From a virus (lineage: Duplodnaviria > Heunggongvirae > Uroviricota > Caudoviricetes), in IMG/VR virus record IMGVR_UViG_3300032315_001309, positions 12,305-76,304 of that record: a stretch of 64,000 bases of DNA. The stretch is one strand, 5' to 3'. How positions within the stretch are numbered: position 1 is the first letter of the stretch; each line of letters starts with the position of its first letter. Under the pieces are notes generated by a model, which saw only the letters and a program-made list of their open reading frames with translations, ran no database searches and was not told the DNA's origin. The translations under genes and the position numbers were made by a program. Of this stretch, positions 40,626-63,990 are shown piece by piece.

Positions 40626-40698
40626 TTAATGCAATATGTTTGAATTTATCATAAATAATTAAACTATAATAAGGTAGGCGCTCTCCTCCTTCATATAA

Positions 40699-54384: not shown

Positions 54385-54837
54385 GTGGACACTATGAAAC
54401 AACTAGTAACTTATGCATCGCATGTAGAAGATCCCACTGCATATGCATTCATGGTCTTTGATTCTATCGAAGACACTGAGAAGTTCTTCCGAACCGCACA
54501 GATCTATTTTGAAATGTATCCTGGTGATACTCTCCAAACTATCTACCTAACTAGTGATAAGTTTGTAGAATATACCAACTACATGAAATTCAGGAATGAT
54601 TTTGAAGTAAAGAATATTTCCAATGAACAGTATCAAACATTGAAGGCTGTATTCACTGGCGAATGTAGCAATCATGGAGCATGTGGAGAATTTGGACATA
54701 CTCAGGTCTTTGATATTATCGAATGTTTCGGTAATCTTCCATACGAAGAGAAACCAGAACTGGTTAAAGAGTTGACTGACTTATATCCCGAATGTGATCT
54801 TGCACTTTCTGGTGAAGATGGCGTCTACATCACATAA
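54385..54837 (+). CDS. hypothetical Cys/His-containing protein
   Basis: 150 aa. Contains GECSNHGACGEFGH, a possible metal site. Confidence 0.35.
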   Translation: MDTMKQLVTYASHVEDPTAYAFMVFDSIEDTEKFFRTAQIYFEMYPGDTLQTIYLTSDKFVEYTNYMKFRNDFEVKNISNEQYQTLKAVFTGECSNHGACGEFGHTQVFDIIECFGNLPYEEKPELVKELTDLYPECDLALSGEDGVYIT

Positions 54838-54907
54838 TTTTTGACTAAATAAACACAAGACCAGAAAATAGATTTCTGGCATATTACACTAAAGGAGCTT
54901 TAGTACC

Positions 54908-55933
54908 ATGATTAAAAAAAAGTTTGACACCATTGTTTTTATTGGTAGATTTCAACCATTACACAATGCACACGTAGCTACAATAAAGAAAGCATATAGT
55001 CTTGCTGATCAAGTATTGATTGTAATTGGTTCCGCAGGAGAACCTAGCACATATAAGAATCCTCTATCAGCGGAACAGCGAGAGGATATTTTGATCTATG
55101 CAATGGCAGATATCGATATTCCAGAACAAGATTATAAGATCATTCACCAGGAAGATTGTCTCTATAGTAATCTTAAATGGTTTACTGAGATTCAAGATAA
55201 AATTACAAAACATACCAAGCCCACTGATAATATTGGAATTATCGGGTATGAGAAGGATAGCAGTAGTTTTTATCTCAAGGGATTTCCACAATGGGAATAC
55301 ATTGAAATGCCATTAGTAGAACATCTGAGTTCTACTGATATTCGGACTCTTTACTTTGTTGAATATCCAAATCTCAAATTCATTAAAGGTGTAATTCCTA
55401 AAGCAACCTTTGAGTTTCTTGAGGATAATTTAAACACCAGTTTCAGGACAAACATCGTAAAAGAACGAAGGTTTGTTGAGAACTATAAAAAACCATATGT
55501 GAATCTCCCATATCCTCCGATTTTCGTAACGACAGATGCCGTAGTTTTCCAATCGGGTCATGTTCTAATGATTCGCAGGAAGGCTTTCCCAGGAAATGGT
55601 CTACTCGCTTTACCTGGAGGATTTGTAAATGCAAATACTGATAAATCTCTTGAAGATGCTATGCTCAGGGAGTTGCGAGAGGAAACTAAGATTAAAGTTC
55701 CGCCCGCAGTTCTTAGAAGTAGTATCACTTCATCCCACGTATTTGATGCTATTGAACGAAGCACTAGAGGAAGAACTATCACTCATGCATTCAATATTGT
55801 TCTGAATGAACCAGAATTACCTAAACTAAGGGCGAGTTCCGATGCATCTGATGCAATGTGGATTCCGATTAGTCAAATCAAAAGAAGTGAGTGTTATGAA
55901 GATCATTATCATATCATTTCCTACTTTATCTAA
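54908..55933 (+). CDS. bifunctional NMN adenylyltransferase / Nudix hydrolase (NadM-Nudix, NatV-like)
   Basis: The N-terminal IVFIGRFQPLHNAH is a nucleotidyltransferase (H/T)xGH motif. The C-terminal GGFVNANTDKSLEDAMLRELREETKIKV is a Nudix box. Confidence 0.75.
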   Translation: MIKKKFDTIVFIGRFQPLHNAHVATIKKAYSLADQVLIVIGSAGEPSTYKNPLSAEQREDILIYAMADIDIPEQDYKIIHQEDCLYSNLKWFTEIQDKITKHTKPTDNIGIIGYEKDSSSFYLKGFPQWEYIEMPLVEHLSSTDIRTLYFVEYPNLKFIKGVIPKATFEFLEDNLNTSFRTNIVKERRFVENYKKPYVNLPYPPIFVTTDAVVFQSGHVLMIRRKAFPGNGLLALPGGFVNANTDKSLEDAMLRELREETKIKVPPAVLRSSITSSHVFDAIERSTRGRTITHAFNIVLNEPELPKLRASSDASDAMWIPISQIKRSECYEDHYHIISYFI

Positions 55934-55945
55934 TTATTATTAAAA

Positions 55946-56476
55946 ATGAAACAATTTACAGAACAAAATTTTCTAGAAAAATATAATCAATATGTATTTT
56001 TCTATGGTGGATTTCTTTCCAATTGGGCAAATACACACTTTTTGGATACTCGCTCAGGAACACCATATAACTGCACGGAACAGTATATGATGGAGAAAAA
56101 GGCGTTGCTCTTTCATGATTATGAAATTGCTAAACGTATTATGACTAAGACTTTTCCTGGTGACCAAAAAGCACTAGGGCGAAAAGTAAAAGGATTTGAC
56201 AAATCTTTGTGGGATCAACACGCCAGGCAAATTGTTTACGAAGGTTGTTATTACAAATTCACTCAAAATGAAGATGCTTATAACTATCTAATGGAAACTA
56301 ACGGATATCTTCTTGTAGAAGCCTCTCCCACTGATACTGTATGGGGAGTTGGAATGGGTGGTTATGAGAAAGAAATTGAAGATCCTAAAAACTGGAAAGG
56401 AACTAATTGGTTGGGTCAAGTTCTTACTCAACTACGAGAAGATATTATAGGTAAACCAGAATTAATAATGTTCTGA
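55946..56476 (+). CDS. NADAR-domain protein (YbiA/DUF1768 family)
   Basis: FFYGGFLSNWANTHF...EQYMMEKKALLFHD...LGRKVKGFDKSLW...LLVEASPTDTVWGVGMG matches the NADAR pattern. Confidence 0.6.
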   Translation: MKQFTEQNFLEKYNQYVFFYGGFLSNWANTHFLDTRSGTPYNCTEQYMMEKKALLFHDYEIAKRIMTKTFPGDQKALGRKVKGFDKSLWDQHARQIVYEGCYYKFTQNEDAYNYLMETNGYLLVEASPTDTVWGVGMGGYEKEIEDPKNWKGTNWLGQVLTQLREDIIGKPELIMF

Positions 56477-56695
56477 TTATGAAAGTTCATACTACAGAAT
56501 TAGTTAAAAAAATTCTAGCTAACCCATCAGCACAAAAACAATTACAATAAGCTCTAACTAACCCAAATCAATGTATAGAACTTGATGGTAAAATATATGA
56601 GCTTGTAAAAGTTTGACAGATGTAAAGTCATTAAAACATGAAGACCTTCGGATAGACTGAAGGCAATTAAAAATCACTAAAGGAGATTTAGTACA

Positions 56696-58084
56696 ATGAA
56701 CAGCAACATTATTCTCAATACTGACTCTTACAAATACAGTCAGTTCAATCAATATCCACCAAATACAGAAATCGTATCTTCCTACATTGAAAGTAGGGGG
56801 GCTAAAGGTGGATTCTATGACAGAACCGTATTCTTCGGTTTGCAGATGTTTCTGAAAGAATATCTTTCCAAACCTATTACTCTAGATCAAATCAACGAAG
56901 CAGAAGAAATCGTTAATGCTCACGGACTTCCATTTAATCGTGCAGGATGGGAATACATCCTCAAACAATATGGTGGATTTCTTCCTCTATGCATTCGTGC
57001 AGTAAAAGAAGGTTCCATTATTCCTACTAAAAATCTTCTGGTTTCTGTAAAAAATACTGATCCAAATTGCGCATGGTTGACTTCTTTTATGGAGACAGCT
57101 ATTCTTCGTGCTGTATGGTATCCTACCACCGTAGCCACATATTCGTGGTACATGAAGCAACTGATTCTACATTCTCTGAAAAGAAATGGTACTCCAGAAT
57201 CTATTGATTTCAAACTACATGACTTCGGATTCCGTGGCGTATCTTCTAAGGAATCTGCTGGTATTGGTGGACTAGCTCACCTAGTCAACTTTCAAGGCAC
57301 TGATACCATGGAGGCCCTACTGTATGGTAGGAGGTACTACAATGCCCCTATGGCAGGTTTTAGCATCCCAGCCACAGAACACAGTACAATCACCTCCTGG
57401 GGGCGTATGGGGGAGGCTGATGCATATGAAAACTTCCTGAATAAGTATGCCCAAGAAGGAAAGATCATCGCATGTGTTAGTGATAGCTACAACATCTATG
57501 ATGCATGTTCTAAGATCTGGGGAGAGCAACTGAAGCAGAAAGTTATTAGTTCTGGTGCTACTCTTGTGATTCGTCCCGATAGTGGATATCCACCAGAAGT
57601 TGTTATGGAATGCCTACACATTCTTGATGCTAAGTTCGGACACACTATCAACAATAAAGGATACAAAGTTCTGAATAATGTTCGTCTTATTCAGGGTGAC
57701 GGAGTTTCTTATGAAATTGTTGGTAACATTCTAAGCAGAATGGATACTGCCGGATTCTCTGCTGATAATATTGCATTCGGTCAAGGCGGCGGACTACTAC
57801 AGGCACATGATAGGGATACACTGAAGTTTGCTATGAAGTGCTCTGCTATCCTTGTGGATGGTGAATGGCGTGATGTGTACAAGCAACCTATCACTGATAT
57901 GGGTAAAGAATCCAAGAAAGGATTGATTGACCTTTACAAAATCGATGGTGAGTATGTCACTAAACGTATTGATGATCATGAAAACCCAGCGAGCGAAACT
58001 CAAATGGTTTTTTATAATGGTATTATGTATAACAGCACCAACTTAGAGACGGTTCGCAAACTGGCACAGTCTATGAGCGTCTGA
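56696..58084 (+). CDS. nadV: nicotinamide phosphoribosyltransferase (NAMPT/NadV)
   Basis: NTDSYKYSQF, HDFGFRGVSS, GTDTMEAL and STIPATEHST are characteristic NAMPT motifs. 462 aa. Confidence 0.8.
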   Translation: MNSNIILNTDSYKYSQFNQYPPNTEIVSSYIESRGAKGGFYDRTVFFGLQMFLKEYLSKPITLDQINEAEEIVNAHGLPFNRAGWEYILKQYGGFLPLCIRAVKEGSIIPTKNLLVSVKNTDPNCAWLTSFMETAILRAVWYPTTVATYSWYMKQLILHSLKRNGTPESIDFKLHDFGFRGVSSKESAGIGGLAHLVNFQGTDTMEALLYGRRYYNAPMAGFSIPATEHSTITSWGRMGEADAYENFLNKYAQEGKIIACVSDSYNIYDACSKIWGEQLKQKVISSGATLVIRPDSGYPPEVVMECLHILDAKFGHTINNKGYKVLNNVRLIQGDGVSYEIVGNILSRMDTAGFSADNIAFGQGGGLLQAHDRDTLKFAMKCSAILVDGEWRDVYKQPITDMGKESKKGLIDLYKIDGEYVTKRIDDHENPASETQMVFYNGIMYNSTNLETVRKLAQSMSV

Positions 58085-58451: not shown

Positions 58452-58524
58452 GGGTTAGTAGCATAGTGGCTAATGCACCTGGCTTTTAACCAGTATATCG
58501 TGAGTTCGAGTCTCACCTAACCCA
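58452..58524 (+). tRNA. tRNA-Lys (anticodon TTT)
   Basis: Manual fold: 7-bp acceptor GGGTTAG/CTAACCC, D-arm GCAT/ATGC, anticodon loop CTTTTAA, T-arm GTGAG-TTCGAGT-CTCAC. Confidence 0.65.
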
Positions 58525-58555
58525 TTAGGACACTATTATCTAAAATGTCCTATTT

Positions 58556-58626
58556 GTCTGGTTCGTCTAATGGTAAGACTGGAGCTTCCAAACCTTTTGA
58601 CGTGGGTTCGATTCCTACACCAGGCG
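58556..58626 (+). tRNA. tRNA, anticodon unresolved (possibly CCA, Trp)
   Basis: Acceptor GTCTGGT/ACCAGGC, D-arm GTCT/AGAC, T-arm GTGGG-TTCGATT-CCTAC. The anticodon stem could not be folded cleanly by hand. Confidence 0.4.
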
Positions 58627-58653
58627 TTAGGTTAAATATACCTAGATTTATTT

Positions 58654-58740
58654 GGGGAAATGGCAACTATCGGCAAGTGTTGCGGCGCTCTGTAAAAGCG
58701 TTACTTTGAACCGTTGGGGGTTCGACTCCCTCTTTCCTCA
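58654..58740 (+). tRNA. tRNA-Tyr (GTA), type II with long variable arm
   Basis: Acceptor GGGGAAA/TTTCCTC, anticodon arm GCGCT-CTGTAAA-AGCGT, T-arm GGGGG-TTCGACT-CCCTC. 87 nt. Confidence 0.5.
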
Positions 58741-58769
58741 TTAGTCATAAATATGACTAGTATATAATT

Positions 58770-58843
58770 GGTCCTGTAGCATAGTGGCCTAATGCACTAC
58801 CCTGTCACGGTAGATTACGGCGGTTCAAATCCGCTCAGGATCG
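58770..58843 (+). tRNA. tRNA-Asp (GTC)
   Basis: Acceptor GGTCCTG/CAGGATC, perfect anticodon stem CTACC/GGTAG with loop CTGTCAC, T-arm GGCGG-TTCAAAT-CCGCT. Confidence 0.7.
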
Positions 58844-58844
58844 T

Positions 58845-58870
58845 ATCTTGCTTCAATAGCAAGATTTTTA
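58845..58870 (+). terminator. hairpin terminator ATCTTGC-TTCAATA-GCAAGAT + TTTT
   Basis: Perfect 7-bp inverted repeat and a T run, directly after tRNA-Asp. Confidence 0.5.
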
Positions 58871-58897
58871 ACTTTATTATCTGAACACTGGAGAATC

Positions 58898-59155
58898 ATG
58901 GGAACAAATTCTAATTGTTGCTGCTATGAAGGAAAAGCTAATCACCCAGATGATGAAGCAGTAGATCGTTTTGCTACTGCTATGAAAGAAAAACTCGCCA
59001 AGAAACGGGAGCAAGGGTGTAGCGGGTGGCAAACTGCTTCGGCTGATTTGCTAAATCAGTTGCTCCAAGAACACCTAAGCAAAGGTGATCCTGTCGATAT
59101 TGCAAATTTTGCCATGATGCTGCATCAGAATGGCCAATCAATCGTAATAAAATGA
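58898..59155 (+). CDS. hypothetical protein
   Basis: 85-aa ORF with a GGAG ribosome-binding site, between tRNA clusters. GC content is higher than the average. Confidence 0.4.
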   Translation: MGTNSNCCCYEGKANHPDDEAVDRFATAMKEKLAKKREQGCSGWQTASADLLNQLLQEHLSKGDPVDIANFAMMLHQNGQSIVIK

Positions 59156-59355
59156 TTACTTTTGAAAGAAAAATGAGGTTGTATGAGAAACTTCATGTAG
59201 GTTGGTGGTGGATCGGGCAAATCTTTGACGAGTGGCGTTGGACCATGACTCATGATGATGGTGACTTCTTTAACTATCTTCAGTCAGATTATGTTGCTTA
59301 CGAGCAAGATATGTATTATGAAGTGAAAGATGGTAAGAAGATTACCACTAAATAA
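59152..59355 (+). CDS. hypothetical protein
   Basis: 67-aa ORF overlapping the previous stop. Confidence 0.35.
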   Translation: MITFERKMRLYEKLHVGWWWIGQIFDEWRWTMTHDDGDFFNYLQSDYVAYEQDMYYEVKDGKKITTK

Positions 59356-59362
59356 AACACAA

Positions 59363-59414
59363 TGGGATGTAGTTCAGCGGTAGAACGTCCTTCATGACGG
59401 TAAACTGTATTCAA
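59363..59414 (+). pseudogene. degenerate tRNA-like 5' fragment (acceptor + D-arm GTTC-AGCGGTA-GAAC, CAT-containing loop)
   Basis: Clear tRNA-type D-arm and a TTCATGA loop. No matching T-arm or 3' acceptor follows, and it abuts the start of tRNA-Asn. Confidence 0.25.
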
Positions 59415-59487
59415 TCCCCATGACTCAGCAGGCGACGAGGGCTGACTGTTAATCAGTTTTTGCTAGGATCGATACCTAGATGGGGAG
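59415..59487 (+). tRNA. tRNA-Asn (GTT)
   Basis: Acceptor TCCCCAT/ATGGGGA (U1-A72), anticodon arm GCTGA-CTGTTAA-TCAGT, T-arm CTAGG-ATCGATA-CCTAG. Confidence 0.5.
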
Positions 59488-59515
59488 TTGTCTGAATAGA
59501 CATTAAACTATTTGA

Positions 59516-59588
59516 GGGAGCATAGCTCAGCGGCTAGAGCAAACTCTTGATAAGGGTTAGGTCACAGGTTCAAATCCTGTTGTTCCCA
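59516..59588 (+). tRNA. tRNA-Ile (GAT)
   Basis: Acceptor GGGAGCA/TGTTCCC, D-arm GCTC/GAGC, anticodon arm AACTC-TTGATAA-GGGTT, T-arm ACAGG-TTCAAAT-CCTGT. Confidence 0.7.
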
Positions 59589-59610
59589 TTCCGCTGAATA
59601 AGTGGTGTAT

Positions 59611-59687
59611 TGCGGAAAAGTGTATTGGTTGCACACTGGGCTCATAACCCAGAGGTAGTCTCAAACGGTTCGATTCCTACTTCCGCC
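59611..59687 (+). tRNA. tRNA-Met-like (CAT) with atypical T-arm, possibly a pseudogene
   Basis: Acceptor (T)GCGGAA/TTCCGCC, D-arm GTGT/GCAC, perfect anticodon stem CTGGG/CCCAG with loop CTCATAA. The T-stem pairs poorly (AACGG-TTCGATT-CCTAC). Confidence 0.35.
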
Positions 59688-59756
59688 ATTGGGAAGCAAT
59701 TCTAGATTATCCCTTCCGGTGCACCCTACCGGGTCTGAATAGATGAAGTGGGTCCA

Positions 59757-59830
59757 GGGGAATTAGCTCAGATGTGTAGAGCACTTGGTTGAAGCCCAAG
59801 GTGTCGTCGGTTCGATTCCGACATTTCCCA
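59757..59830 (+). tRNA. tRNA-Phe (GAA)
   Basis: Acceptor GGGGAAT/ATTTCCC, anticodon arm CTTGG-TTGAAGC-CCAAG, T-arm GTCGG-TTCGATT-CCGAC. Confidence 0.7.
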
Positions 59831-59868
59831 TACGAGTCACTAAATAATAGTGACTCGATTCCTTTGTT

Positions 59869-60387
59869 ATGAAACATCTTCATCATATTATCCCAAAACA
59901 CGCAGGAGGAACTGACGAACCCTCCAATCTTATTGAACTTACTGTAGAAGAACATGCGAGGGAACATTACCTCTTGTGGAACCAATATGGTAGGTGGCAA
60001 GATAAAGTTGCGTGGAAGGGTTTATACGAAATGATAGATAAACAAGATGTTATTGCTAACATCAGGAATGAAATGTGGCAATCTTCTAGTCATAGAGAAA
60101 TGTTTTCTCACATAATGAAGCAAGTCTGGAAAAGAGAAGATTATCGTCAACGACAGTTGCAAATGTCAAATGTTTCTCAGCCGATTGCTACTTTAGCATC
60201 AACTTCACCCGAATCCAGACAAAAGAGAAAGAAGACTTTACAAGAAATCAATCATCAACAGGGTTCTAAAAACTCACAGTTTGGTAAGATGTGGATCACA
60301 AACGAAACTCATTCTTATAGGATAAATAAGAATGAGTCTATCCCCGAAGGTTACCGAAAGGGTAGAGTCATTAAAAGTAAGACCTAA
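59869..60387 (+). mobile_element. HNH homing endonuclease gene inside the tRNA island
   Basis: The N-terminal HHIIPKHAGGTDEPSNLIELTVEEHAREH is an HNH motif. The C-terminal GSKNSQFGKMWITNETHSYRI...PEGYRKGR is a NUMOD-like DNA-binding motif. A perfect 9-bp hairpin (GAGTCACTA/TAGTGACTC) sits just upstream. Confidence 0.65.
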
Positions 60388-60474
60388 GTGATTTTATAAA
60401 GCATTGGGGTGGAAATAACACACCACATTAAAACCGGGTTAGAAGTTTGTAGGTTTTCATAAACCTACCATTAT

Positions 60475-60548
60475 GGGGTCACATGTACCAAGGCTGGCGA
60501 GACTGCTTTGCAAGCAGACTGTGTAGAGTTCGATTCTCTATGATTCCA
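60475..60548 (+). tRNA. tRNA-Ala (TGC)
   Basis: Acceptor GGGGTCA/TGATTCC with the G3:U70 Ala identity pair, anticodon arm ACTGC-TTTGCAA-GCAGA, T-arm TAGAG-TTCGATT-CTCTA. The D-arm is poorly paired. Confidence 0.5.
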
Positions 60549-60570
60549 TTGATACTTAAAGTATCATTTT

Positions 60571-60641
60571 GGTCCTGTCGTCCCGTGGTTAAGACGCTGC
60601 CCTTTCAAGGCGGAACAAGAGTTCAATTCTCTTCTGGACTA
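60571..60641 (+). tRNA. tRNA-Glu (TTC)
   Basis: Acceptor GGTCCTG/CTGGACT, anticodon arm CTGCC-CTTTCAA-GGCGG, short variable loop, T-arm AAGAG-TTCAATT-CTCTT. Confidence 0.55.
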
Positions 60642-60649
60642 TTTCTCAT

Positions 60650-60750
60650 TTATGAGAAACCTGTTGAATACTCGGGCCAGTTGGACGGGAGTTAATGTTA
60701 AAGTGCTCAATGACTTTAATTCTTCAAGAGTTCGACTCTCTTGTGGTCCA
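60650..60750 (+). ncRNA. tRNA-like element of unresolved structure (T-arm AAGAG-TTCGACT-CTCTT present; possible atypical or pseudo-tRNA)
   Basis: Canonical T-arm and a possible CCA-proximal GTGGTCCA are present. No standard acceptor or anticodon arms could be built. A 6-bp inverted repeat TTAAAG/CTTTAA lies upstream. Confidence 0.2.
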
Positions 60751-60886
60751 TAATTTATAATCATTTGTAATTAAAATGTAACCAAAATGAGGAAAAAACT
60801 TGTTGGTTGGAATTTTGATTTTAGACTGTATGACTCTAGGCATTGGGATAATAAAAACAATTGTTGGCACTCACAGTAGGTAAGCA

Positions 60887-61180
60887 ATGAAAGGCACAGC
60901 ATATACAAAACTTTATAGTTATAATCCCATTCACGAACCCATAAGTGGGTTACCTTGGCATCTAGCCTTTGGTAAAATGCGAAGAGAAGCAATCAAGAAA
61001 GAGTTTTTGAATAATCCACGTCTTCAACAATGGGGCCTCCGTATTGATAGCTCATGGTGTCCACAATTAAAAAATGATCCAGAGTTAAGGCAACTTGTGA
61101 AATCTGGATTTCTGAAACAAGTAAGAAGATTCGATAAATCTTATTTGGTATTGAACGATGAATGTGTATCGACATATTAA
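60887..61180 (+). CDS. hypothetical protein
   Basis: 97-aa ORF. The overlapping minus-strand ORFs are judged spurious. Confidence 0.3.
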   Translation: MKGTAYTKLYSYNPIHEPISGLPWHLAFGKMRREAIKKEFLNNPRLQQWGLRIDSSWCPQLKNDPELRQLVKSGFLKQVRRFDKSYLVLNDECVSTY

Positions 61181-61418
61181 AAACGGTCACCTGTATTGGG
61201 TCTATCGTGATAGATATCATCAAATAAAGGTAGAACCTTTGTATTATGGTACGCCAAAGTTGACTTGTACTCAGAATCCAAGAAAGCTCACTCACTATAG
61301 TGGGCTTGAGAGTTTTACATTAACATATACAGAATAGATTGGTCCAATCTAAAAACTGACACACCAAGCAGGCTCAAGCCTGAATTCCTGATATGATTTT
61401 ATCAAATGAAATTAAATC

Positions 61419-61619
61419 ATGCGTTGGATTTGGCCCCCGAAAGAACATAAAGATTCCGAATTGGATGATCTTGTTAATAATGGGAAACTTAAAGAGTATT
61501 CTTATGTTTCTCTTGAAGATTACGAAAAACTCGTTTTGACTCTTCCATGCGGAACTAAAATTTCTATTGATTCTGAACCTGGAATTGAATGTAGTTCTCT
61601 TTCTGTTCGTGTATCCTAA
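61419..61619 (+). CDS. hypothetical protein
   Basis: 66-aa ORF. Confidence 0.3.
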   Translation: MRWIWPPKEHKDSELDDLVNNGKLKEYSYVSLEDYEKLVLTLPCGTKISIDSEPGIECSSLSVRVS

Positions 61620-61826
61620 ATGGAAAATAAATCAGTTGAAATTGATATGGAATTCATTCGAGAATTCACTGGGCTCTTTCAGGAAGTAAATTGTTCGCTA
61701 TTCAGGAAACCCAATCTACAAGAAAGAGTAGATGAATTTGTCGAAAAGTATTCTCATGTAATTAACAGAGAAGGTTATGAAAATCCCGAACCCAAACAAA
61801 ATCATGCAACTTACTGTCAACTATAA
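61620..61826 (+). CDS. hypothetical protein
   Basis: 68-aa ORF, contiguous with the previous one. Confidence 0.3.
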   Translation: MENKSVEIDMEFIREFTGLFQEVNCSLFRKPNLQERVDEFVEKYSHVINREGYENPEPKQNHATYCQL

Positions 61827-62007
61827 TTCACACACACAAATGTTTGTCTGGACCATATATGATGGCCCAGACGGAATTGATGAGGGTTGCGGCGATGCTC
61901 GTACTCTTGGTGAAGTGTTTGAACAAGTTACTATCTGGAGGCATAACAACGCCAAACAGTATTTCTGATAAATCGGTACTCAATACAAAAACCAACTACA
62001 AAATCTC

Positions 62008-62382
62008 ATGAAAAATAAAAAACTCAAAAGAATCAAAGCCTGGGTAAAAGCTCTCAAGTCTGGTAAGTATAAACAAACCACTGAACAACTATATGATGGA
62101 AAAGGATTCTGTTGTCTTGGTGTGGCCACGGACCTATATCTGAAAGAAAAGGGGAAGGAATGGCAAAAAGAAACTTCACGTTCTTATGGTGTTGATAATG
62201 AGTTTGATGAGATCGAAACCTCTGAACTTACTACAAGAATCGCTTCGTGGTATGGATTGAAATTAAGGTCACCAGAAGTTTCTCACAAAGGTCTCGGCAG
62301 AACATTGATGTATCTTAATGATAGTGAGAAACTTTCTTTCAAAAAGATTGCTAAGTTGATCAAAAAAACTTATCTAAAGTAA
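62008..62382 (+). CDS. hypothetical basic protein
   Basis: 124 aa, Lys-rich at both ends. Confidence 0.35.
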   Translation: MKNKKLKRIKAWVKALKSGKYKQTTEQLYDGKGFCCLGVATDLYLKEKGKEWQKETSRSYGVDNEFDEIETSELTTRIASWYGLKLRSPEVSHKGLGRTLMYLNDSEKLSFKKIAKLIKKTYLK

Positions 62383-62547
62383 AAAACATGAAAGATTATG
62401 ATTTGGAACGATTGATCGAGTCTGGTGATATCACTAAGTATGTGTATGAAGATGATGAGTACACTGAAAATGTCAAGATCACGTTTCCTTCTGGTTTGGT
62501 GTTATCTATTAGTTCTTCTGCAACTACCTATGGTGGTAGCGGTTTGA

Positions 62548-62913
62548 TTGTTGAAGTTGGTGAATGAAATGACTGAAAAAGATCTACTATTGCGACTAGA
62601 ACATATCTGTCAGGTATATCGTGACATTAACGACAAGTATTGGGAAGAAAATGATCTTACTTTAGAAGAAGTGAATCAATGTCTAGTCTACATTTCTGGT
62701 AAACTTCAAAATAATATATTCAATCGAGAAGATCCTGAACAGTGGCAAGAAGTTAAATATATTCTCTATGGACGACTAGAGAAGAAATCGCCCCAGACAA
62801 CGTTTGAACTATCTTTGGGACTTCCTGAGGGTGTTGGTACTGTTGTTCTGGATGAAATAGAATATGGTCGCATGTACCTAGATGAAAATTATCAAATTGG
62901 ATTAAAAAAATGA
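62548..62913 (+). CDS. hypothetical protein
   Basis: 121-aa ORF. Confidence 0.35.
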   Translation: MLKLVNEMTEKDLLLRLEHICQVYRDINDKYWEENDLTLEEVNQCLVYISGKLQNNIFNREDPEQWQEVKYILYGRLEKKSPQTTFELSLGLPEGVGTVVLDEIEYGRMYLDENYQIGLKK

Positions 62914-63110
62914 ACATAAAACAACTTAAAGAACTATTAAATGAACACCCTGATGATATGCGACTAGTTCGACGTGGGTATGAGGGTGGTTATTCTGATA
63001 TAGATGATTTAGTGGTGATTGGTTTGAAACTCAACAAAAATACTGCATGGTTTTACGGCCCACATGAAATTTCTACGGATGAAGACGAATTTGCACTTCT
63101 TATTGATTAA
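62910..63110 (+). CDS. hypothetical protein
   Basis: 66 aa, overlapping start (ATGA). Confidence 0.3.
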   Translation: MNIKQLKELLNEHPDDMRLVRRGYEGGYSDIDDLVVIGLKLNKNTAWFYGPHEISTDEDEFALLID

Positions 63111-63113
63111 AAA

Positions 63114-63446
63114 ATGAGCTACTACATTCTTGTTGTTGATCGTGACGGTGACGGGCTTGAAATGCTTACAGAAAATAAATATATGAATGTGTGTCTGTTT
63201 TTCACTAAAGAAGAACTTGATGCCGGAATCGTTGGTGCAATCAAGTATCTTAAAGATCAATTAGAATTTGGTCAAAATTACTCTGACATTGATTCAATGT
63301 TGAATGTTTTTGAATGTGTGAGTAGTATTGGTGATATCAGTACTGTAAATTACATCAGGAACATTCGGGAATCAATTGATGAGGAAGAAAAACAAAAAGA
63401 CAAACGACGAAAACTTTATTTGGAACTTCAACGGGAATTTGGCTAA
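63114..63446 (+). CDS. hypothetical protein
   Basis: 110-aa ORF. Confidence 0.35.
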   Translation: MSYYILVVDRDGDGLEMLTENKYMNVCLFFTKEELDAGIVGAIKYLKDQLEFGQNYSDIDSMLNVFECVSSIGDISTVNYIRNIRESIDEEEKQKDKRRKLYLELQREFG

Positions 63447-63480
63447 TAACCAAACTTCAAAAATTTCACACTAAATTATT

Positions 63481-63678
63481 ATGCCTAAACTATCTGACGC
63501 CGATAAAATCGGGGCAGTGATTTTCTCCACTGTTGTAACTCTCATTCTTATTATGATCGCCCACCAAAATATCATGAATAAACGACAACATGATTCTTTT
63601 GTTTTGTGCTTGAAATCGGGGGTTCCTAGTGAGTATGCTGATAATTCAATTGCATGTTCTTCTATTCTTCGTAATTAA
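63481..63678 (+). CDS. hypothetical small membrane protein
   Basis: Central TM helix VIFSTVVTLILIMIA. Confidence 0.3.
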   Translation: MPKLSDADKIGAVIFSTVVTLILIMIAHQNIMNKRQHDSFVLCLKSGVPSEYADNSIACSSILRN

Positions 63679-63683
63679 ATATA

Positions 63684-63908
63684 ATGACTCCTACCGAAGC
63701 CTCAGTTAAATTAGTAGAAATCATCGAAAAGCACATTGACTCTAAACCAACTGAATTGTATTTAAAAATTATGGTTCTTATGTGTGAATATGGTGATTCT
63801 TGTTATTTGGTAGCAAAACAAAAATATTATAAAGATGGTTATGGCGATGGACATTTTGATGGTTATCAAGAAGGATATGGTTCAGGCTGTAGTGATTCCG
63901 CGCCATAA
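63684..63908 (+). CDS. hypothetical protein
   Basis: 74-aa ORF. Confidence 0.3.
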   Translation: MTPTEASVKLVEIIEKHIDSKPTELYLKIMVLMCEYGDSCYLVAKQKYYKDGYGDGHFDGYQEGYGSGCSDSAP

Positions 63909-63918
63909 ATAAAATAAA

Positions 63919-63990
63919 GGCAGTATAGCTGAGTGGTAAAGCGCATCATTCATACCGATGTGATCATGAGTTCGATCCTCATTGCTGCCA
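63919..63990 (+). tRNA. tRNA-Met/Ile2 (CAT)
   Basis: Acceptor GGCAGTA/TGCTGCC, anticodon arm CATCA-TTCATAC-CGATG, T-arm ATGAG-TTCGATC-CTCAT. Confidence 0.65.

What the first reader, a model, noticed from the sequence alone, without database searches (positions are those of the whole stretch)
54884..56698. Near-identical hairpin-embedded ribosome-binding site shared by the two NAD-enzyme genes
The 24 nt before the NMNAT-Nudix ATG (CACTAAAGGAGCTTTAGTACCATG) and before the NAMPT ATG (CACTAAAGGAGATTTAGTACAATG) are 22/24 identical. In both, ACTAAAG pairs with CTTTAGT so that the Shine-Dalgarno GGAG sits in the loop of a 6-7 bp hairpin. The intervening NADAR gene lacks the element. This looks like a dedicated translational control element, either riboregulator-like or a protein operator, that co-regulates the two enzymes of the pathway.
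Basis: seen in the sequence. Interest (0 to 1): 0.55.

Follow-up and report, generated by a model that had tools for sequence, protein, structure and literature searches.

The report
Two-hairpin leader RNA of NAD genes
The shared ribosome-binding hairpin is real, and it is the 3' half of a ~55-nt two-hairpin mRNA leader that is conserved through compensatory base changes in front of NAD-synthesis genes (nadM, nadV, also nadA and pnuC) in many phages and a few bacteria, so it looks like an undescribed pathway-specific translational control element whose effector is still unknown.

Summary
Observation confirmed: CACTAAAGGAGNTTTAGTAC occurs exactly twice in the window (54887-54906, 56675-56694; 0.01 expected), before the NMNAT-Nudix (nadM) and NAMPT (nadV) start codons. 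It is only half of the element. About 23 nt upstream each copy has a second hairpin with the same AUAGA loop and different, compensating stems (CCAGAAA/UUUCUGG; CCUUCGG/CUGAAGG). This leader recurs before NAMPT and NMNAT homologues (37-67% aa identity) in dozens of uncultured phage contigs, in Synechococcus phages B3/B23, and in a few bacterial contigs (30-68% GC); I collected 96 unique instances. Both helices covary (87-88% paired versus 58-64% shuffled). The 245-kb B3 genome has two copies only. A few copies precede nadA and one precedes pnuC. Hairpin 1 is stable (median -8.2 kcal/mol), has an A-N-A-G-A pentaloop and often lies just after a sigma70-like promoter. Hairpin 2 is marginal (-2.7), holds AA-GGAG-N-UU at its apex and ends at the AUG. 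Loop-to-SD spacing is 23.0 +/- 2.4 nt. Rfam 15 has no match and I found no paper describing it. Best reading: a NAD-pathway translational operator whose loops bind a bivalent factor, protein more likely than metabolite. A third NAD-type riboswitch is not excluded. Regulation itself is inferred.

The parts
54850..54910 (+). Leader copy 1 (nadM): full extent of the covariance-model match, ending at the nadM AUG
   Evidence: cmsearch with R1, filters off: 58.7 bits, E 2.4e-11
54861..54879 (+). Hairpin 1 of copy 1: CCAGAAA (54861-54867), loop AUAGA (54868-54872), UUUCUGG (54873-54879)
   Evidence: 7-bp stem found by the loop scan; -6.3 kcal/mol; the homologous helix covaries across the family
54880..54887 (+). 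Linker of copy 1 (CAUAUUAC), lacking G
   Evidence: Sequence; linkers across the family are 7% G against 23% background
54888..54904 (+). Hairpin 2 of copy 1: ACUAAAG-GAG-CUUUAGU with SD GGAG at 54894-54897; AUG at 54908-54910
   Evidence: Fold -4.4 kcal/mol in the 27-nt context (-3.6 for the bare hairpin); helix 95-98% paired with compensatory changes
54908..55933 (+). nadM: bifunctional NMN adenylyltransferase / Nudix hydrolase, 341 aa
   Evidence: Pfam CTP_transf_like + NUDIX; 98% identical to B3 gp46
55946..56476 (+). NADAR-domain gene, 176 aa, 12 nt after the nadM stop; no leader and no SD, so probably expressed from the nadM transcript
   Evidence: Pfam NADAR 162 bits; upstream region unstructured; no CM hit
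56634..56698 (+). Leader copy 2 (nadV): full extent of the covariance-model match, ending at the nadV AUG
   Evidence: cmsearch with R1, filters off: 53.3 bits, E 4.7e-10
56645..56663 (+). Hairpin 1 of copy 2: CCUUCGG (56645-56651), loop AUAGA (56652-56656), CUGAAGG (56657-56663; one G-U pair)
   Evidence: -7.6 kcal/mol; the inner five pairs differ from copy 1 on both sides
56664..56675 (+). Linker of copy 2 (CAAUUAAAAAUC), lacking G
   Evidence: Sequence
56676..56692 (+). Hairpin 2 of copy 2: ACUAAA-GGAGA-UUUAGU with SD GGAG at 56682-56685; AUG at 56696-56698
   Evidence: Fold -3.2 kcal/mol in the 27-nt context (-2.4 for the bare hairpin)
56696..58084 (+). nadV: nicotinamide phosphoribosyltransferase (NAMPT), 462 aa
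   Evidence: Pfam NAMPT_N + NAPRTase; 98% identical to B3 gp49

Best explanation
The two 24-mers are the 3' modules of two copies of a conserved ~55-nt mRNA leader that acts in cis on translation initiation of NAD-pathway genes. Hairpin 1 is a stable stem of arbitrary sequence capped by an A-N-A-G-A pentaloop, usually closed by G-C. It is the recognition module and, where a promoter is recognisable, sits within a few nt of the 5' end of the mRNA. After a G-poor linker comes hairpin 2, a marginally stable stem (median -2.7 kcal/mol) whose apex is AA-GGAG-N-UU. It encloses the SD and the SD-AUG spacer and ends at the AUG, so it is the expression platform. Proposed mechanism: on its own hairpin 2 is too weak to exclude the 30S subunit and the mRNA is translated. 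A trans-acting factor that engages both purine-rich loops, held 23 +/- 2.4 nt apart, locks hairpin 2 shut and represses nadM and nadV together (and nadA or pnuC where these carry the leader). I think the factor is more likely a bivalent (dimeric) protein than a small molecule. The leading candidates are the only proteins always encoded with the element, NadM (an NMNAT, by analogy with the NMNAT-family regulator NadR) or NadV, probably with a NAD-related metabolite as co-effector. Shown here: the sequence, the structure, its covariation, its gene specificity, its spacing, its energetics and its distribution. Inferred: that it regulates, the direction of regulation, and the identity of the effector. 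My probabilities: cis-acting, NAD-gene-specific translational element about 0.85; effector is a protein about 0.4-0.45; that protein is NadM or NadV about 0.25.
For: - Structure, unbiased set: 29 non-redundant leaders taken only because they lie upstream of NAMPT homologues align so that both helices are 87.8% paired against 63.5% in shuffles (0/500) and 27-45% when partners are slid by 1-3 columns. 12 of 13 pairs change on both sides, and RNAalifold predicts the same two hairpins.
- Structure, independent set: 28 nadM leaders not used for the model give 87.0% against 58.1%, hairpin 2 is 97.9% paired, and GAUAGAC is invariant 28/28.
- Strand: G-U pairs occur in the stems, so the structure is specific to the sense RNA strand.
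- Specificity: two copies in the window and in the whole B3 genome. In 457 kb of phage NAD loci all 55 generalised-scan hits lead nadM, nadV or a short ORF followed directly by nadM; 734 kb of unrelated viral loci give 3 weak hits.
- Regulon: the leader also precedes nadA in L245, L311, L314 and L343, and pnuC in L276.
- Independence from phage factors: it lies between nadM and nadV on a 1.0-Mb, 67%-GC betaproteobacterial contig flanked by LapD-like and adhesin genes, and before both genes in Microbulbifer. Sphingopyxis, which lacks it, has an adjacent NrtR.
- Operator-like anatomy: invariant loop on a free stem; hairpin 1 median -8.2 and hairpin 2 median -2.7 kcal/mol; AUG mostly within 2 nt of the hairpin-2 foot; 92 of 96 full leaders fold into both hairpins.
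- Fixed geometry: loop-to-SD distance 23.0 +/- 2.4 nt, with half the variance expected from its components.
- Bivalent, co-evolving partner: the two loops change in parallel between lineages, AUAGA/GGAGU, AGAGA/AGAGA (L291, RSL1 hairpin 2) and GAGGU/GAGGA (L282, L287, L288).
- Candidate partners: only NAMPT (36 of 38) and NMNAT (35 of 38) are common to motif-bearing loci.
- Own transcript: a sigma70-like promoter matching at least 10 of 12 positions lies just upstream in 31% of instances against 0.6% of controls.
Against: - No experiment or expression data; regulation, its sign and the effector are all inferred.
- Neither NadM nor NadV has a recognisable RNA-binding domain: Pfam shows only CTP_transf_like + NUDIX and NAMPT_N + NAPRTase.
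- A regulon spanning four NAD gene families in phages and bacteria of very different composition is the classic signature of a riboswitch.
- The SD sits in the loop rather than being base-paired, and hairpin 2 is so weak that it might not repress at all.
- The parallel loop variants (GAGGU, CC-AGAGA-GG) were read by eye in a handful of loci.
- The generalised scan presupposes an A-N-A-G-A loop and stems, so the statistics from the 96 instances are partly circular.
- Neither window copy has a recognisable sigma70 promoter, so the claim that hairpin 1 is 5'-terminal is not established for this phage.
Confidence: 0.45

Rival explanations
1. A riboswitch: the leader itself binds a NAD-related small molecule (NAD+, NMN, nicotinamide, ADP-ribose or PRPP). 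The two similar pentaloops would cooperate as in the guanidine-II (mini-ykkC) riboswitch, or the two hairpins would act as tandem domains as in NAD+-I. Ligand binding would stabilise or open hairpin 2 to set translation of salvage, synthesis and transport genes.
For: - The regulon covers four NAD gene families (nadM, nadV, nadA, pnuC), the last two being the genes that gave the two known NAD+ riboswitch classes their names.
- It occurs in phages and in a bacterial chromosome at 30-68% GC with no conserved accessory protein.
- In the one case examined it replaces the NrtR transcription factor: L203 has NrtR and no motif.
- The RBS is embedded in the second hairpin and the geometry is fixed.
- The literature regards the scarcity of NAD+ riboswitches as unexplained and expects further classes (PMC7749635).
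Against: - The conserved core outside the SD is only a pentaloop plus its closing pair, with no junction, bulge or pseudoknot.
- I found no loop-arm or loop-loop complementarity and no GUCUAUC partner.
- Loop position 2 is free, and whole-loop variants exist (GUAGA, GGAGA, GAGGU, and 4-nt AAGA/UAGA), which is hard to reconcile with one fixed ligand pocket.
- No alternative mutually exclusive structure is evident.
- Rfam models of the NAD+-I and NAD+-II classes do not match.
Confidence: 0.22
2. A constitutive expression cassette with no effector. Hairpin 1 at the 5' end protects the mRNA from 5'-end-dependent decay, and hairpin 2 merely presents the SD or sets a fixed translation rate. The cassette travels with the genes by horizontal transfer.
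For: - Hairpin 1 starts a few nt after the predicted transcription start where a promoter is recognisable and is stable.
- Hairpin 2 is too weak to block ribosomes by itself.
- The nadM-nadV block with its leaders has a different upstream neighbour in the window than in B3, with homology starting at window 54827, as expected of a mobile module.
Against: - A protective hairpin needs no particular loop, yet GAUAGAC is invariant in 28 of 28 independent nadM leaders while the stems vary freely.
- The loop-to-SD distance is constrained.
- The element is restricted to NAD genes among hundreds of early genes.
- It is kept in a 67%-GC bacterial chromosome.
Confidence: 0.15
3. A binding site for a global host RNA-binding regulator or small RNA, for example a CsrA/RsmA-type protein (GGA in hairpin loops, two sites per dimer), a PyrR-type protein (the CC-AGAGA-GG hairpins in RSL1 and L291 recall its binding loop), or a pyrimidine-rich sRNA pairing with both purine-rich loops.
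For: - The architecture of an upstream hairpin plus a GGA-in-loop hairpin over the SD about 20 nt away matches, from my own knowledge, the dual-site geometry of CsrA.
- UCCAGAGAGG occurs in both RSL1 leaders and twice in L291.
- Loop 1 contains a UNR sequence, typical of fast RNA-RNA recognition loops (my knowledge).
Against: - Loop 1 has AGA rather than the GGA that CsrA requires.
- Hosts range from cyanobacteria (B3/B23) to beta- and gammaproteobacteria; as far as I know they do not share CsrA.
- The Rfam PyrR model does not match RSL1 or L291 even at E<=10.
- A global regulator would not be expected to hit only NAD genes in a 245-kb genome.
- No complementary GUCUAUC is enriched nearby.
Confidence: 0.1
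4. A DNA-level element: the palindrome ACTAAAG-N3-CTTTAGT is an operator for a dimeric NAD-responsive transcription factor such as host NrtR, and only happens to overlap the RBS.
For: In Synechocystis NrtR regulates nadM-nadV, and NrtR boxes are palindromes (PMC2330246). The window sequence is a 7+7 inverted repeat.
Against: - NrtR boxes are 21-bp palindromes with a conserved GT-N7-AC core; the window has AC-N13-GT.
- Across genomes the arms keep complementarity but not sequence. That is what RNA pairing predicts and is the opposite of what a protein-DNA operator predicts.
- G-U pairs would be A-C mismatches on the other strand.
- The start codon abuts the 3' arm, far downstream of any promoter.
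Confidence: 0.02
5. Nothing special: a generic RBS context of this phage, or a chance or recently duplicated stretch.
For: AU-rich sequence around a strong SD gives short stems by chance (4-5 bp at about a dozen other gene starts). The isolated hairpins are weak. The 15-mer CTAAAGGAGNTTTAG is common in viral contigs.
Against: - Only two matches in the window with up to 3 mismatches and two in the 245-kb relative.
- The other 15- and 17-mer hits lie in coding sequence, for example a collagen-like repeat in L067.
- Conservation with compensatory change across proteins only 37-67% identical excludes a recent duplication as the whole story.
Confidence: 0.02

Closest known systems
NAD+-I riboswitch (nadA motif) and NAD+-II riboswitch (pnuC motif)
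   Same: These are cis-acting 5'-UTR RNAs of NAD biosynthesis or transport genes. In NAD+-I two tandem stem-loop domains are present and the second comprises the RBS (abstract of PMC7708056, listed). In NAD+-II the RBS is part of the fold (PMC7749635). The gene associations overlap, since this leader also precedes nadA and pnuC.
   Different: NAD+-I has bulged stems with an ACANCCCC bulge and is confined to Acidobacteria, with 101 representatives. NAD+-II has P1, P1a and a pseudoknot and is confined to Streptococcus, with about 130 representatives. The present leader has two plain hairpins, an A-N-A-G-A pentaloop and no bulge consensus or pseudoknot. It sits mainly in phages before nadM and nadV, and it matches neither Rfam model. 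Ligand binding has not been tested.
Guanidine-II riboswitch (mini-ykkC)
   Same: Works-like analogy from my own knowledge: two small hairpins of arbitrary stem sequence with similar conserved loops, joined by a variable linker, the second next to the RBS. It shows that so simple an architecture can be a riboswitch.
   Different: Its loops are ACGR tetraloops that kiss through C-G pairs. Here the loops are purine-rich pentaloops (ANAGA and GGAGN) with no mutual complementarity, the genes are unrelated, and there is no Rfam match.
Phage and bacterial translational operators bound by proteins (MS2/R17 coat-protein operator on the replicase RBS; T4 gp43, gp32 and RegA operators; E. coli thrS operator)
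   Same: A hairpin with a sequence-specific loop on a sequence-free stem, placed at or next to the RBS. The RBS structure is marginally stable and becomes repressive only when the protein binds. Regulation is often autogenous, and in thrS a dimer recognises two hairpins. This is my knowledge of those systems; the anatomy here is.
   Different: No binding protein has been identified. The loop sequences are unrelated to any of those operators. B3 does encode a RegA homologue (gp307), but the leader also occurs in a bacterial chromosome and in contigs of very different size and composition, so RegA cannot be the general partner.
NadR / NrtR / NiaR control of NAD genes
   Same: The same physiological niche and overlapping target genes (nadA, pnuC, nadV, nadM). 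NadR is itself an NMNAT-family enzyme fused to a regulator (PMC2330246), which is the precedent for proposing NadM as effector. NrtR-controlled and leader-carrying nadM-nadV loci look like alternatives.
   Different: Those are DNA-binding transcription factors with conserved palindromic operators. Here the conserved feature is RNA secondary structure at the RBS.
DUF2815 RNA (Rfam RF03084), a phage leader motif upstream of an SSB-like gene
   Same: It is a phage 5'-leader ending in an A-rich RBS, and its consensus begins GGGUAGAC, close to the G-AUAGA-C apex here and identical to the GUAGA variant in L241.
   Different: The score is only 13.9 bits against a gathering score of 41.2 (E 2.4 in a 91-nt search). 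In that model GGGUAGAC is unpaired and is followed by a different hairpin, and the associated gene is unrelated (an ssDNA-binding protein). This is a lead and not a match.

Membership tests
NAD+-I riboswitch (nadA motif) | Two tandem bulged stem-loops with the conserved ACANCCCC bulge; match to the Rfam covariance model | tested here: not met
   No Rfam hit at gathering threshold on the window or at E<=10 on 54780-56760 and 56620-56710. No ACANCCCC in either leader. Features taken from the abstract of PMC7297122.
NAD+-II riboswitch (pnuC motif) | P1 / P1a / pseudoknot fold with a highly conserved sequence; Streptococcus pnuC leaders | tested here: not met
   No Rfam hit. No pseudoknot partner for the loop. 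Features from PMC7749635.
Riboswitch in general | Direct, selective binding of a metabolite by the RNA, with a structural change | not testable with these tools
   Needs in-line probing, ITC or reporter assays. Comparative signs point both ways: a NAD-specific regulon in favour, a minimal and variable loop against.
Guanidine-II (mini-ykkC) | Two hairpins each capped by an ACGR tetraloop | tested here: not met
   The loops are A-N-A-G-A and G-G-A-G-N pentaloops; no Rfam hit.
Protein-bound translational operator | Conserved loop on a covarying stem, at or next to the RBS, with the RBS structure marginally stable | tested here: met
   GAUAGAC is invariant 28/28 on stems where 7 of 8 pairs change on both sides. 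Hairpin 2 has median -2.7 kcal/mol and ends at the AUG.
Protein-bound translational operator | An identified protein that binds the RNA and represses translation | not testable with these tools
   Only NadM and NadV co-occur universally, and neither has a known RNA-binding domain.
CsrA/RsmA binding sites | GGA motif in the loop of each of two hairpins, one overlapping the SD | tested here: not met
   Loop 2 has GGA, but loop 1 has AGA in 96 of 96 main-type instances. Whether the hosts have CsrA was not tested.
PyrR binding site (Rfam PyrR family) | Match to the Rfam model; a binding loop that I recall as containing UCCAGAGAGG | tested here: not met
   No hit at E<=10 on RSL1 (L179:2200-4050) or on L291:2880-3020, nor on the window leaders. 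The 10-mer resemblance in RSL1 and L291 rests on memory, because the source paper could not be read.
NrtR operator (DNA) | 21-bp palindrome with a conserved GT-N7-AC core upstream of NAD genes | tested here: not met
   The window palindrome is AC-N13-GT, and its arms are not conserved in sequence between genomes.
DUF2815 RNA (RF03084) | Rfam gathering score of 41.2 bits | tested here: not met
   13.9 bits, E 2.4.
Generic RBS context / dispersed repeat of the phage | The same element upstream of many unrelated genes | tested here: not met
   Two copies in the window and two in the whole B3 genome. Generalised-scan hits in NAD loci all lead NAD genes.
PeSL-type mobile promoter/stem-loop cassettes of T4-like phages | As I recall: a stem-loop plus early promoter module repeated between many genes of hyperplastic regions | not tested
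   I could not retrieve the defining paper. The present element follows the promoter rather than preceding it and is gene-specific rather than dispersed, so membership looks unlikely.

The most novel reading that the evidence does not exclude
The leader is a third, structurally minimal class of NAD-pathway riboswitch, working either through two cooperating pentaloops in the manner of guanidine-II or by sensing nicotinamide or ADP-ribose rather than NAD+ itself. Phages would carry it so that their NAD+-reconstitution genes (NAMPT + NMNAT, the NARP2 pathway) are translated in step with the NAD+ depletion caused by host immune NADases. The alternative reading, in which the NMNAT or NAMPT enzyme itself is a metabolite-controlled RNA-binding repressor of the NAD regulon, would be about as novel.
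Probability: 0.22. Interest if true: 0.9.

Novelty: new variant of a known kind. Interest (0 to 1): 0.72.

Why it matters
NAMPT plus NMNAT is the pathway by which many phages rebuild NAD+ after NAD-depleting bacterial immunity (it is called NARP2 in the abstract of PMC13464706). I found nothing in the searchable literature on how its expression is controlled. A conserved, gene-specific RNA leader gives that question a concrete handle of about 55 nt, with clear mutations to make.

It also bears on a recognised puzzle. NAD+ is among the most ancient and abundant cofactors, yet only two rare and taxonomically narrow riboswitch classes are known for it, and further classes are expected (PMC7749635). 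This element is associated with the same kinds of genes and spans phages and bacteria from 30 to 68% GC. Either outcome is informative:

- If the RNA binds a metabolite, it is a new and unusually small NAD-type riboswitch.
- If it binds NadM or NadV, it is a new case of a metabolic enzyme acting as an RNA-binding regulator, an RNA-level counterpart of NadR.

On the practical side, the leader is a compact marker for annotating NAD-salvage modules in viral metagenomes.

Tried and rejected
- **Generic RBS or dispersed repeat:** rejected. There are two copies per 245-kb genome.
- **15-mer CTAAAGGAGNTTTAG in IMG/VR:** too permissive.
- **Rfam:** nothing but tRNAs at gathering threshold, and nothing relevant at E<=10.
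- **Pseudoknot or kissing partner for loop 1:** GUCUAUC is not enriched on the mRNA strand (18 against about 28 expected). Loop-1 pairing to the 3' arm of hairpin 2 is no better than a shuffled loop in the independent set. The UCUAU arm in one NAMPT subgroup is lineage-specific.
- **NrtR DNA operator:** the core GT-N7-AC is absent and the arms are not conserved.
- **PyrR site:** the Rfam model does not match, and I could not retrieve the consensus from a paper.
- **Intrinsic terminator:** the positions after hairpin 1 are A-rich, with no U-tract. The only terminator-like call is on the minus strand, where there is no gene.
- **Third copy in the window at 40664-40728 (19 bits):** it has no ANAGA hairpin and I dismissed it.
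- **A third conserved protein as effector:** none found. The most frequent extra gene is a macrodomain-like protein in 22 of 38 loci, and it has no leader.
- **Covariance model R1 on GC-rich loci:** it misses true copies such as L191 even with filters off. I replaced it with a composition-independent scan, which in turn misses copies whose stem 1 has internal loops.
- **PnuC relatives in viral contigs:** none found, so the pnuC association rests on one locus.
- **Distant cultured phages** (Vibrio Va3, Aeromonas AS-gz, Tunturi_5, Brevundimonas Domovoi): no element.
- **Literature searches for a prior description:** nothing found.

Full report
**1. The observation**

The 20-mer CACTAAAGGAGNTTTAGTAC occurs at 54887-54906 and 56675-56694 on the + strand and nowhere else in the window, even with three mismatches allowed (expected 0.01). 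Each copy ends one base before the ATG of a long ORF. ORF 54908-55933 (341 aa) carries cytidylyltransferase-like and NUDIX domains, so it is the bifunctional NMNAT-Nudix enzyme NadM. ORF 56696-58084 (462 aa) carries NAMPT_N and NAPRTase domains, so it is NAMPT, or NadV. The ORF between them (55946-56476) is a NADAR protein with neither an SD nor any predicted structure upstream.

ACUAAAG-GAG-CUUUAGU folds at -4.4 kcal/mol and ACUAAA-GGAGA-UUUAGU at -3.2 kcal/mol. Both are weak, with z about -1.8 against shuffles. Among 67 SD+ATG+ORF sites in the window these two have the longest SD-flanking stems, but only by one base pair. On the window alone the structure would therefore be suggestive and no more.

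**2. The genome**

The window is a T4-like cyanophage, 97% identical over this region to Synechococcus phages B3 and B23 (Kyanoviridae). Homology to B3 begins at window position 54827, about 34 nt before the element, and the upstream gene differs between the two phages.

**3. The element is larger than reported**

Aligning the two upstream regions shows that similarity resumes further 5' as AAGACC-stem-ATAGA-stem-GGCA. Copy 1 has CCAGAAA-AUAGA-UUUCUGG at 54861-54879, and copy 2 has CCUUCGG-AUAGA-CUGAAGG at 56645-56663. The loop and the outer two pairs are the same, while the inner five pairs differ on both sides. These are the only 7-bp hairpins with an ATAGA loop in the window.

**4. Comparative evidence**

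I fetched viral contigs encoding NAMPT relatives without reference to the motif (49 loci, mostly 56-67% aa identity). Nearly all of them show the following in front of NAMPT:

- often a sigma70-like promoter;
- a hairpin with a (G)AUAGA(C) apex whose stem differs from contig to contig;
- an A/C/U-rich linker;
- a second hairpin with the SD in its loop and arms that also differ (AAUAGA-GGAGU-UCUAUU, AUAAA-GGAU-UUUAU, GCAAA-GGAGU-UUUGC and so on), followed by the AUG.

A MAFFT alignment of 29 non-redundant leaders kept both hairpins in register. Under the two-hairpin structure 87.8% of cells are paired, against 63.5% in shuffles (0 of 500 reach the observed value) and 27-45% when partners are slid by 1-3 columns. 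12 of 13 pairs show changes on both sides. RNAalifold predicts the same two helices independently.

A covariance model built from this alignment (R1) gave these results:

| Target | Result |
|---|---|
| Window, filters off | Two copies (58.7 and 53.3 bits); next best 19 bits |
| Whole 245-kb B3 genome | Two copies; next best 19 bits |
| Viral NAMPT/NMNAT loci | 91 hits, all on the coding strand; many loci with a second copy |

The second copies precede NMNAT-Nudix homologues that are only 37-55% identical to the window's protein. In four loci they precede a short inserted ORF that is followed directly by nadM. These nadM leaders were not used in training. Aligned on their own, GAUAGAC is invariant in 28 of 28 sequences, 87.0% of cells are paired against 58.1% in shuffles, and hairpin 2 is 97.9% paired with four of its five pairs covarying. 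G-U pairs occur in the stems, which ties the structure to the sense RNA strand.

**5. Breadth**

Cultured phages with more distant NAMPTs (below 48% identity: Vibrio Va3, Aeromonas AS-gz, Tunturi_5, Brevundimonas Domovoi) lack the element. Ralstonia jumbo phage RSL1 has a parallel arrangement before both genes. Its first hairpins are GGGAGCC-AAGA-GGCUCCC and AAACCC-UAGA-GGGUUU. Its RBS hairpins are UAUCC-AGAGA-GGAUA and UUUCC-AGAGA-GGAAA, whose arms differ in a compensatory way.

Bacterial NAMPT loci of comparable similarity (43 loci) mostly lack the element. Sphingopyxis instead has a divergent NrtR next to nadM-nadV. The element is nevertheless present in a few bacterial contigs:

- **L191**, a 1.0-Mb, 67%-GC betaproteobacterial contig. 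The element lies between nadM and nadV (UGCGCGCG-AUAGA-CGCGCGCA ... GCAA-GGAGA-UUGC-cAUG), flanked by LapD-like and adhesin genes, which is chromosomal context.
- **L226**, Microbulbifer okhotskensis, before both genes, with AGAGA loops.
- **L188 and L222**, two MAG contigs.

R1 was trained on AT-rich sequences and misses GC-rich copies, so I wrote a composition-independent scan. It requires a stem of at least 5 bp, an A-N-A-G-A loop, a GGA flanked by at least 4 bp within 4-34 nt, and then a start codon.

| Set scanned | Hits | Control |
|---|---|---|
| Bacterial NAMPT loci | 8 | 0.8 in shuffles |
| 29 of 80 NadM-anchored metagenome loci (34-68% GC, including 404-kb and 1.2-Mb contigs) | 39 | 1.0 in shuffles |
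| 457 kb of phage NAD loci | 55, all leading nadM, nadV or short ORF + nadM | 3 weak hits in 734 kb of unrelated viral loci |

All four nucleotides occur at loop position 2, sometimes differing between the two leaders of one genome.

**6. Regulon**

Two scan hits precede other genes: a quinolinate synthase NadA (L245, Pfam 218 bits) and a PnuC/NMN-transporter protein (L276, 155 bits). The three closest viral NadA relatives (63-68% identity; L311, L314, L343) also carry the element before nadA, although hairpin 1 is degenerate in L343. The same contigs have it before nadM or nadV. No PnuC relatives were found in viral contigs, so the pnuC link rests on one locus. The element thus marks a NAD-specific set of genes.

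**7. Anatomy across 96 unique instances**

| Feature | Value |
|---|---|
| Hairpin 1 | 6-12 bp; median -8.2 kcal/mol; A-N-A-G-A pentaloop closed by G-C in 85% (often C-G with AGAGA) |
| Linker | 3-17 nt; A 43%, C 25%, U 25%, G 7% (background G 23%) |
| Hairpin 2 | 4-10 bp; median -2.7 kcal/mol; conserved apex AA-GGAG-N-UU, even in GC-rich genomes |
| AUG position | Mostly within 2 nt of the 3' foot of hairpin 2 |
| Full-leader MFE | Both hairpins present in 92 of 96 |

The variance of the summed components is about half what randomly recombined stem and linker lengths give (6.1 against 12.4; the minimum of 2000 permutations was 8.6). Part of that compensation could come from how I assign stem boundaries, but the distance itself does not depend on that.

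A sigma70-like promoter matching at least 10 of 12 positions lies just upstream in 31% of 49 unique instances, against 0.6% of control positions. The -10 element typically ends about 9-10 nt before the first paired base. In those genomes hairpin 1 is essentially the 5' end of a dedicated mRNA. Neither window copy has a recognisable sigma70 promoter.

Two caveats apply. The scan presupposes the loop and the stems, so these statistics describe the family and do not prove it; the proof is. The scan also misses copies whose stem 1 has internal loops.

**8. Variants**

Inspecting NadM leaders that the scan missed shows lineages in which both loops differ from the main type in parallel:

| Lineage | Loop 1 | Loop 2 |
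|---|---|---|
| Main type | AUAGA | GGAGU |
| L291 (and hairpin 2 of RSL1) | CC-AGAGA-GG | CC-AGAGA-GG |
| L282, L287, L288 | G-GAGGU-C | GCG-GAGGA-CGC |

In L288, counted by hand, and in RSL1 the spacing of about 23-24 nt is kept; in L291 it is about 27. These were read by eye in a few loci. If they hold up, the two loops are recognised by the same kind of surface, and that surface co-evolves with the RNA.

**9. What it is not**

- **Not a generic RBS or a repeat**.
- **Not a DNA operator.** NrtR boxes are 21-bp palindromes with a GT-N7-AC core (PMC2330246). Here the arms keep complementarity but not sequence.
- **Not an intrinsic terminator.** There is no U-tract after hairpin 1.
- **Not in Rfam 15.** Only tRNAs reach gathering threshold. 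Nothing relevant appears at E<=10, including the NAD+-I, NAD+-II and PyrR models. The best sub-threshold hit is DUF2815 RNA at 13.9 against 41.2 bits.
- **No RNA partner for loop 1.** I found no complementary partner nearby and no consistent loop-arm pseudoknot.
- **No third conserved protein.** Only NAMPT (36 of 38) and NMNAT (35 of 38) are common to motif-bearing loci. A macrodomain-like protein occurs in 22 loci without a leader.
- **No prior description** in the searchable literature. Papers up to 2023 count two NAD+ riboswitch classes, both rare and taxonomically narrow.

**10. Mechanism**

The evidence establishes a cis-acting RNA structure at the ribosome-binding site that is specific to NAD genes. 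It consists of a stable recognition hairpin and a marginal hairpin enclosing the SD through to the AUG, at a fixed distance from each other. That is the anatomy of a translational operator or a translational riboswitch.

I favour a protein effector (about 0.4-0.45) for these reasons:

- the only conserved information outside the SD is a pentaloop on a free stem;
- loop position 2 is free, and whole-loop variants exist;
- the two loops appear to change together between lineages.

All of these fit a co-evolving bivalent protein better than a fixed small-molecule pocket. NadM or NadV are the only candidates always present, and NadR sets a precedent for an NMNAT-family enzyme that doubles as the NAD regulator.

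A riboswitch (about 0.22) remains a serious possibility because of the NAD-specific regulon, the distribution across phages and bacteria of very different composition, and the apparent complementarity with NrtR. Guanidine-II shows that two small hairpins with similar loops can be enough. The other rivals and my estimates are:

- a constitutive stabiliser or presentation cassette, about 0.15;
- a host global regulator or small RNA, about 0.1;
- a DNA operator or a chance match, about 0.02 each.

The direction of regulation, the effector, and even the fact of regulation are all inferred.

**11. Verdict**

The finding is real and considerably more interesting than first described. It is a previously uncatalogued structured leader of phage, and some bacterial, NAD-salvage and NAD-synthesis genes, with strong covariation support and a clear experimental path. 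It is a new family within a known kind of system, the cis-regulatory mRNA leader.

Noticed in passing
L179 (Ralstonia phage RSL1) 2270-2345 and 3905-3982: Both NAD genes of this jumbo phage have an analogous pair of hairpins that R1 does not detect. The first-hairpin loops are AAGA and UAGA. The RBS hairpins are UAUCC-AGAGA-GGAUA and UUUCC-AGAGA-GGAAA, with a compensatory arm change. The 10-mer UCCAGAGAGG recalls the PyrR binding loop as I remember it, but Rfam's PyrR model does not match.
   Followed up: partly
window 55946-56476; L020:2930-3421; L226:5440-6273: The slot between or next to nadM and nadV holds a different ADP-ribose-processing gene in different genomes: NADAR in the window, a macrodomain-like protein in 22 of 38 motif-bearing loci (weak PDB matches to 6lfu and 5m3i, E about 1e-4), and an ADP-ribosylglycohydrolase in Microbulbifer. 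None of them has its own leader.
   Followed up: partly
window 54827 (boundary) and ORF 54385-54837: Homology to phages B3 and B23 starts only at 54827, about 34 nt before hairpin 1. The upstream gene differs: a 150-aa ORF with no Pfam hit here, against B3 gp45, which is annotated (implausibly for 207 aa) as translation initiation factor 2. The nadM-NADAR-nadV block with its leaders may move as a module.
   Followed up: no
window 58452-63990: A cluster of at least 8 tRNA genes lies directly downstream of nadV (Rfam tRNA, 34-70 bits). The B3 relative carries many tRNAs, including tRNA-Arg(TCT) and tRNA-Ile(TAT).
   Followed up: no
window 56649-56698 versus Rfam RF03084: There is a weak sub-threshold resemblance (13.9 bits, E 2.4) to the DUF2815 RNA, a phage leader upstream of an SSB-like gene. 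Its consensus begins GGGUAGAC, like the G-AUAGA-C apex here and the GUAGA loop in L241. This could hint at a wider class of phage leaders sharing this loop.
   Followed up: partly
L017:3818, L028:5556, L173:3799, L174:3096: In four phage contigs a short unrelated ORF (67-125 aa, no known function) sits between the leader and nadM, so the leader heads a two-gene transcript.
   Followed up: partly
L245:333-1022; L311, L314, L343: Viral contigs encode quinolinate synthase NadA next to nadM or nadV, and some of these nadA genes carry the leader. The L245 ORF is only 230 aa against a 295-position Pfam model, so it may be truncated or split.
   Followed up: partly
L067 (IMG/VR contig 3300032311_000326) 2466-4442, minus strand: Six exact copies of CTAAAGGAGATTTAG lie inside a collagen-like Gly-X-Y coding repeat (GGT TCT AAA GGA GAT TTA GGx). 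They are unrelated to ribosome-binding sites.
   Followed up: yes
window 56479-56550: A 23-codon ORF overlaps the NADAR stop (ATG at 56479). B3 annotates a 45-aa gp48 at the corresponding place, so the small gene is either shortened here or not real.
   Followed up: no
L191:2720-2790: On the bacterial chromosome contig the nadM leader has only a short CCCG-ACAGA-CGGG hairpin and no clear SD hairpin, whereas the nadV leader downstream is a textbook copy. The two leaders of one genome can differ in completeness.
   Followed up: no
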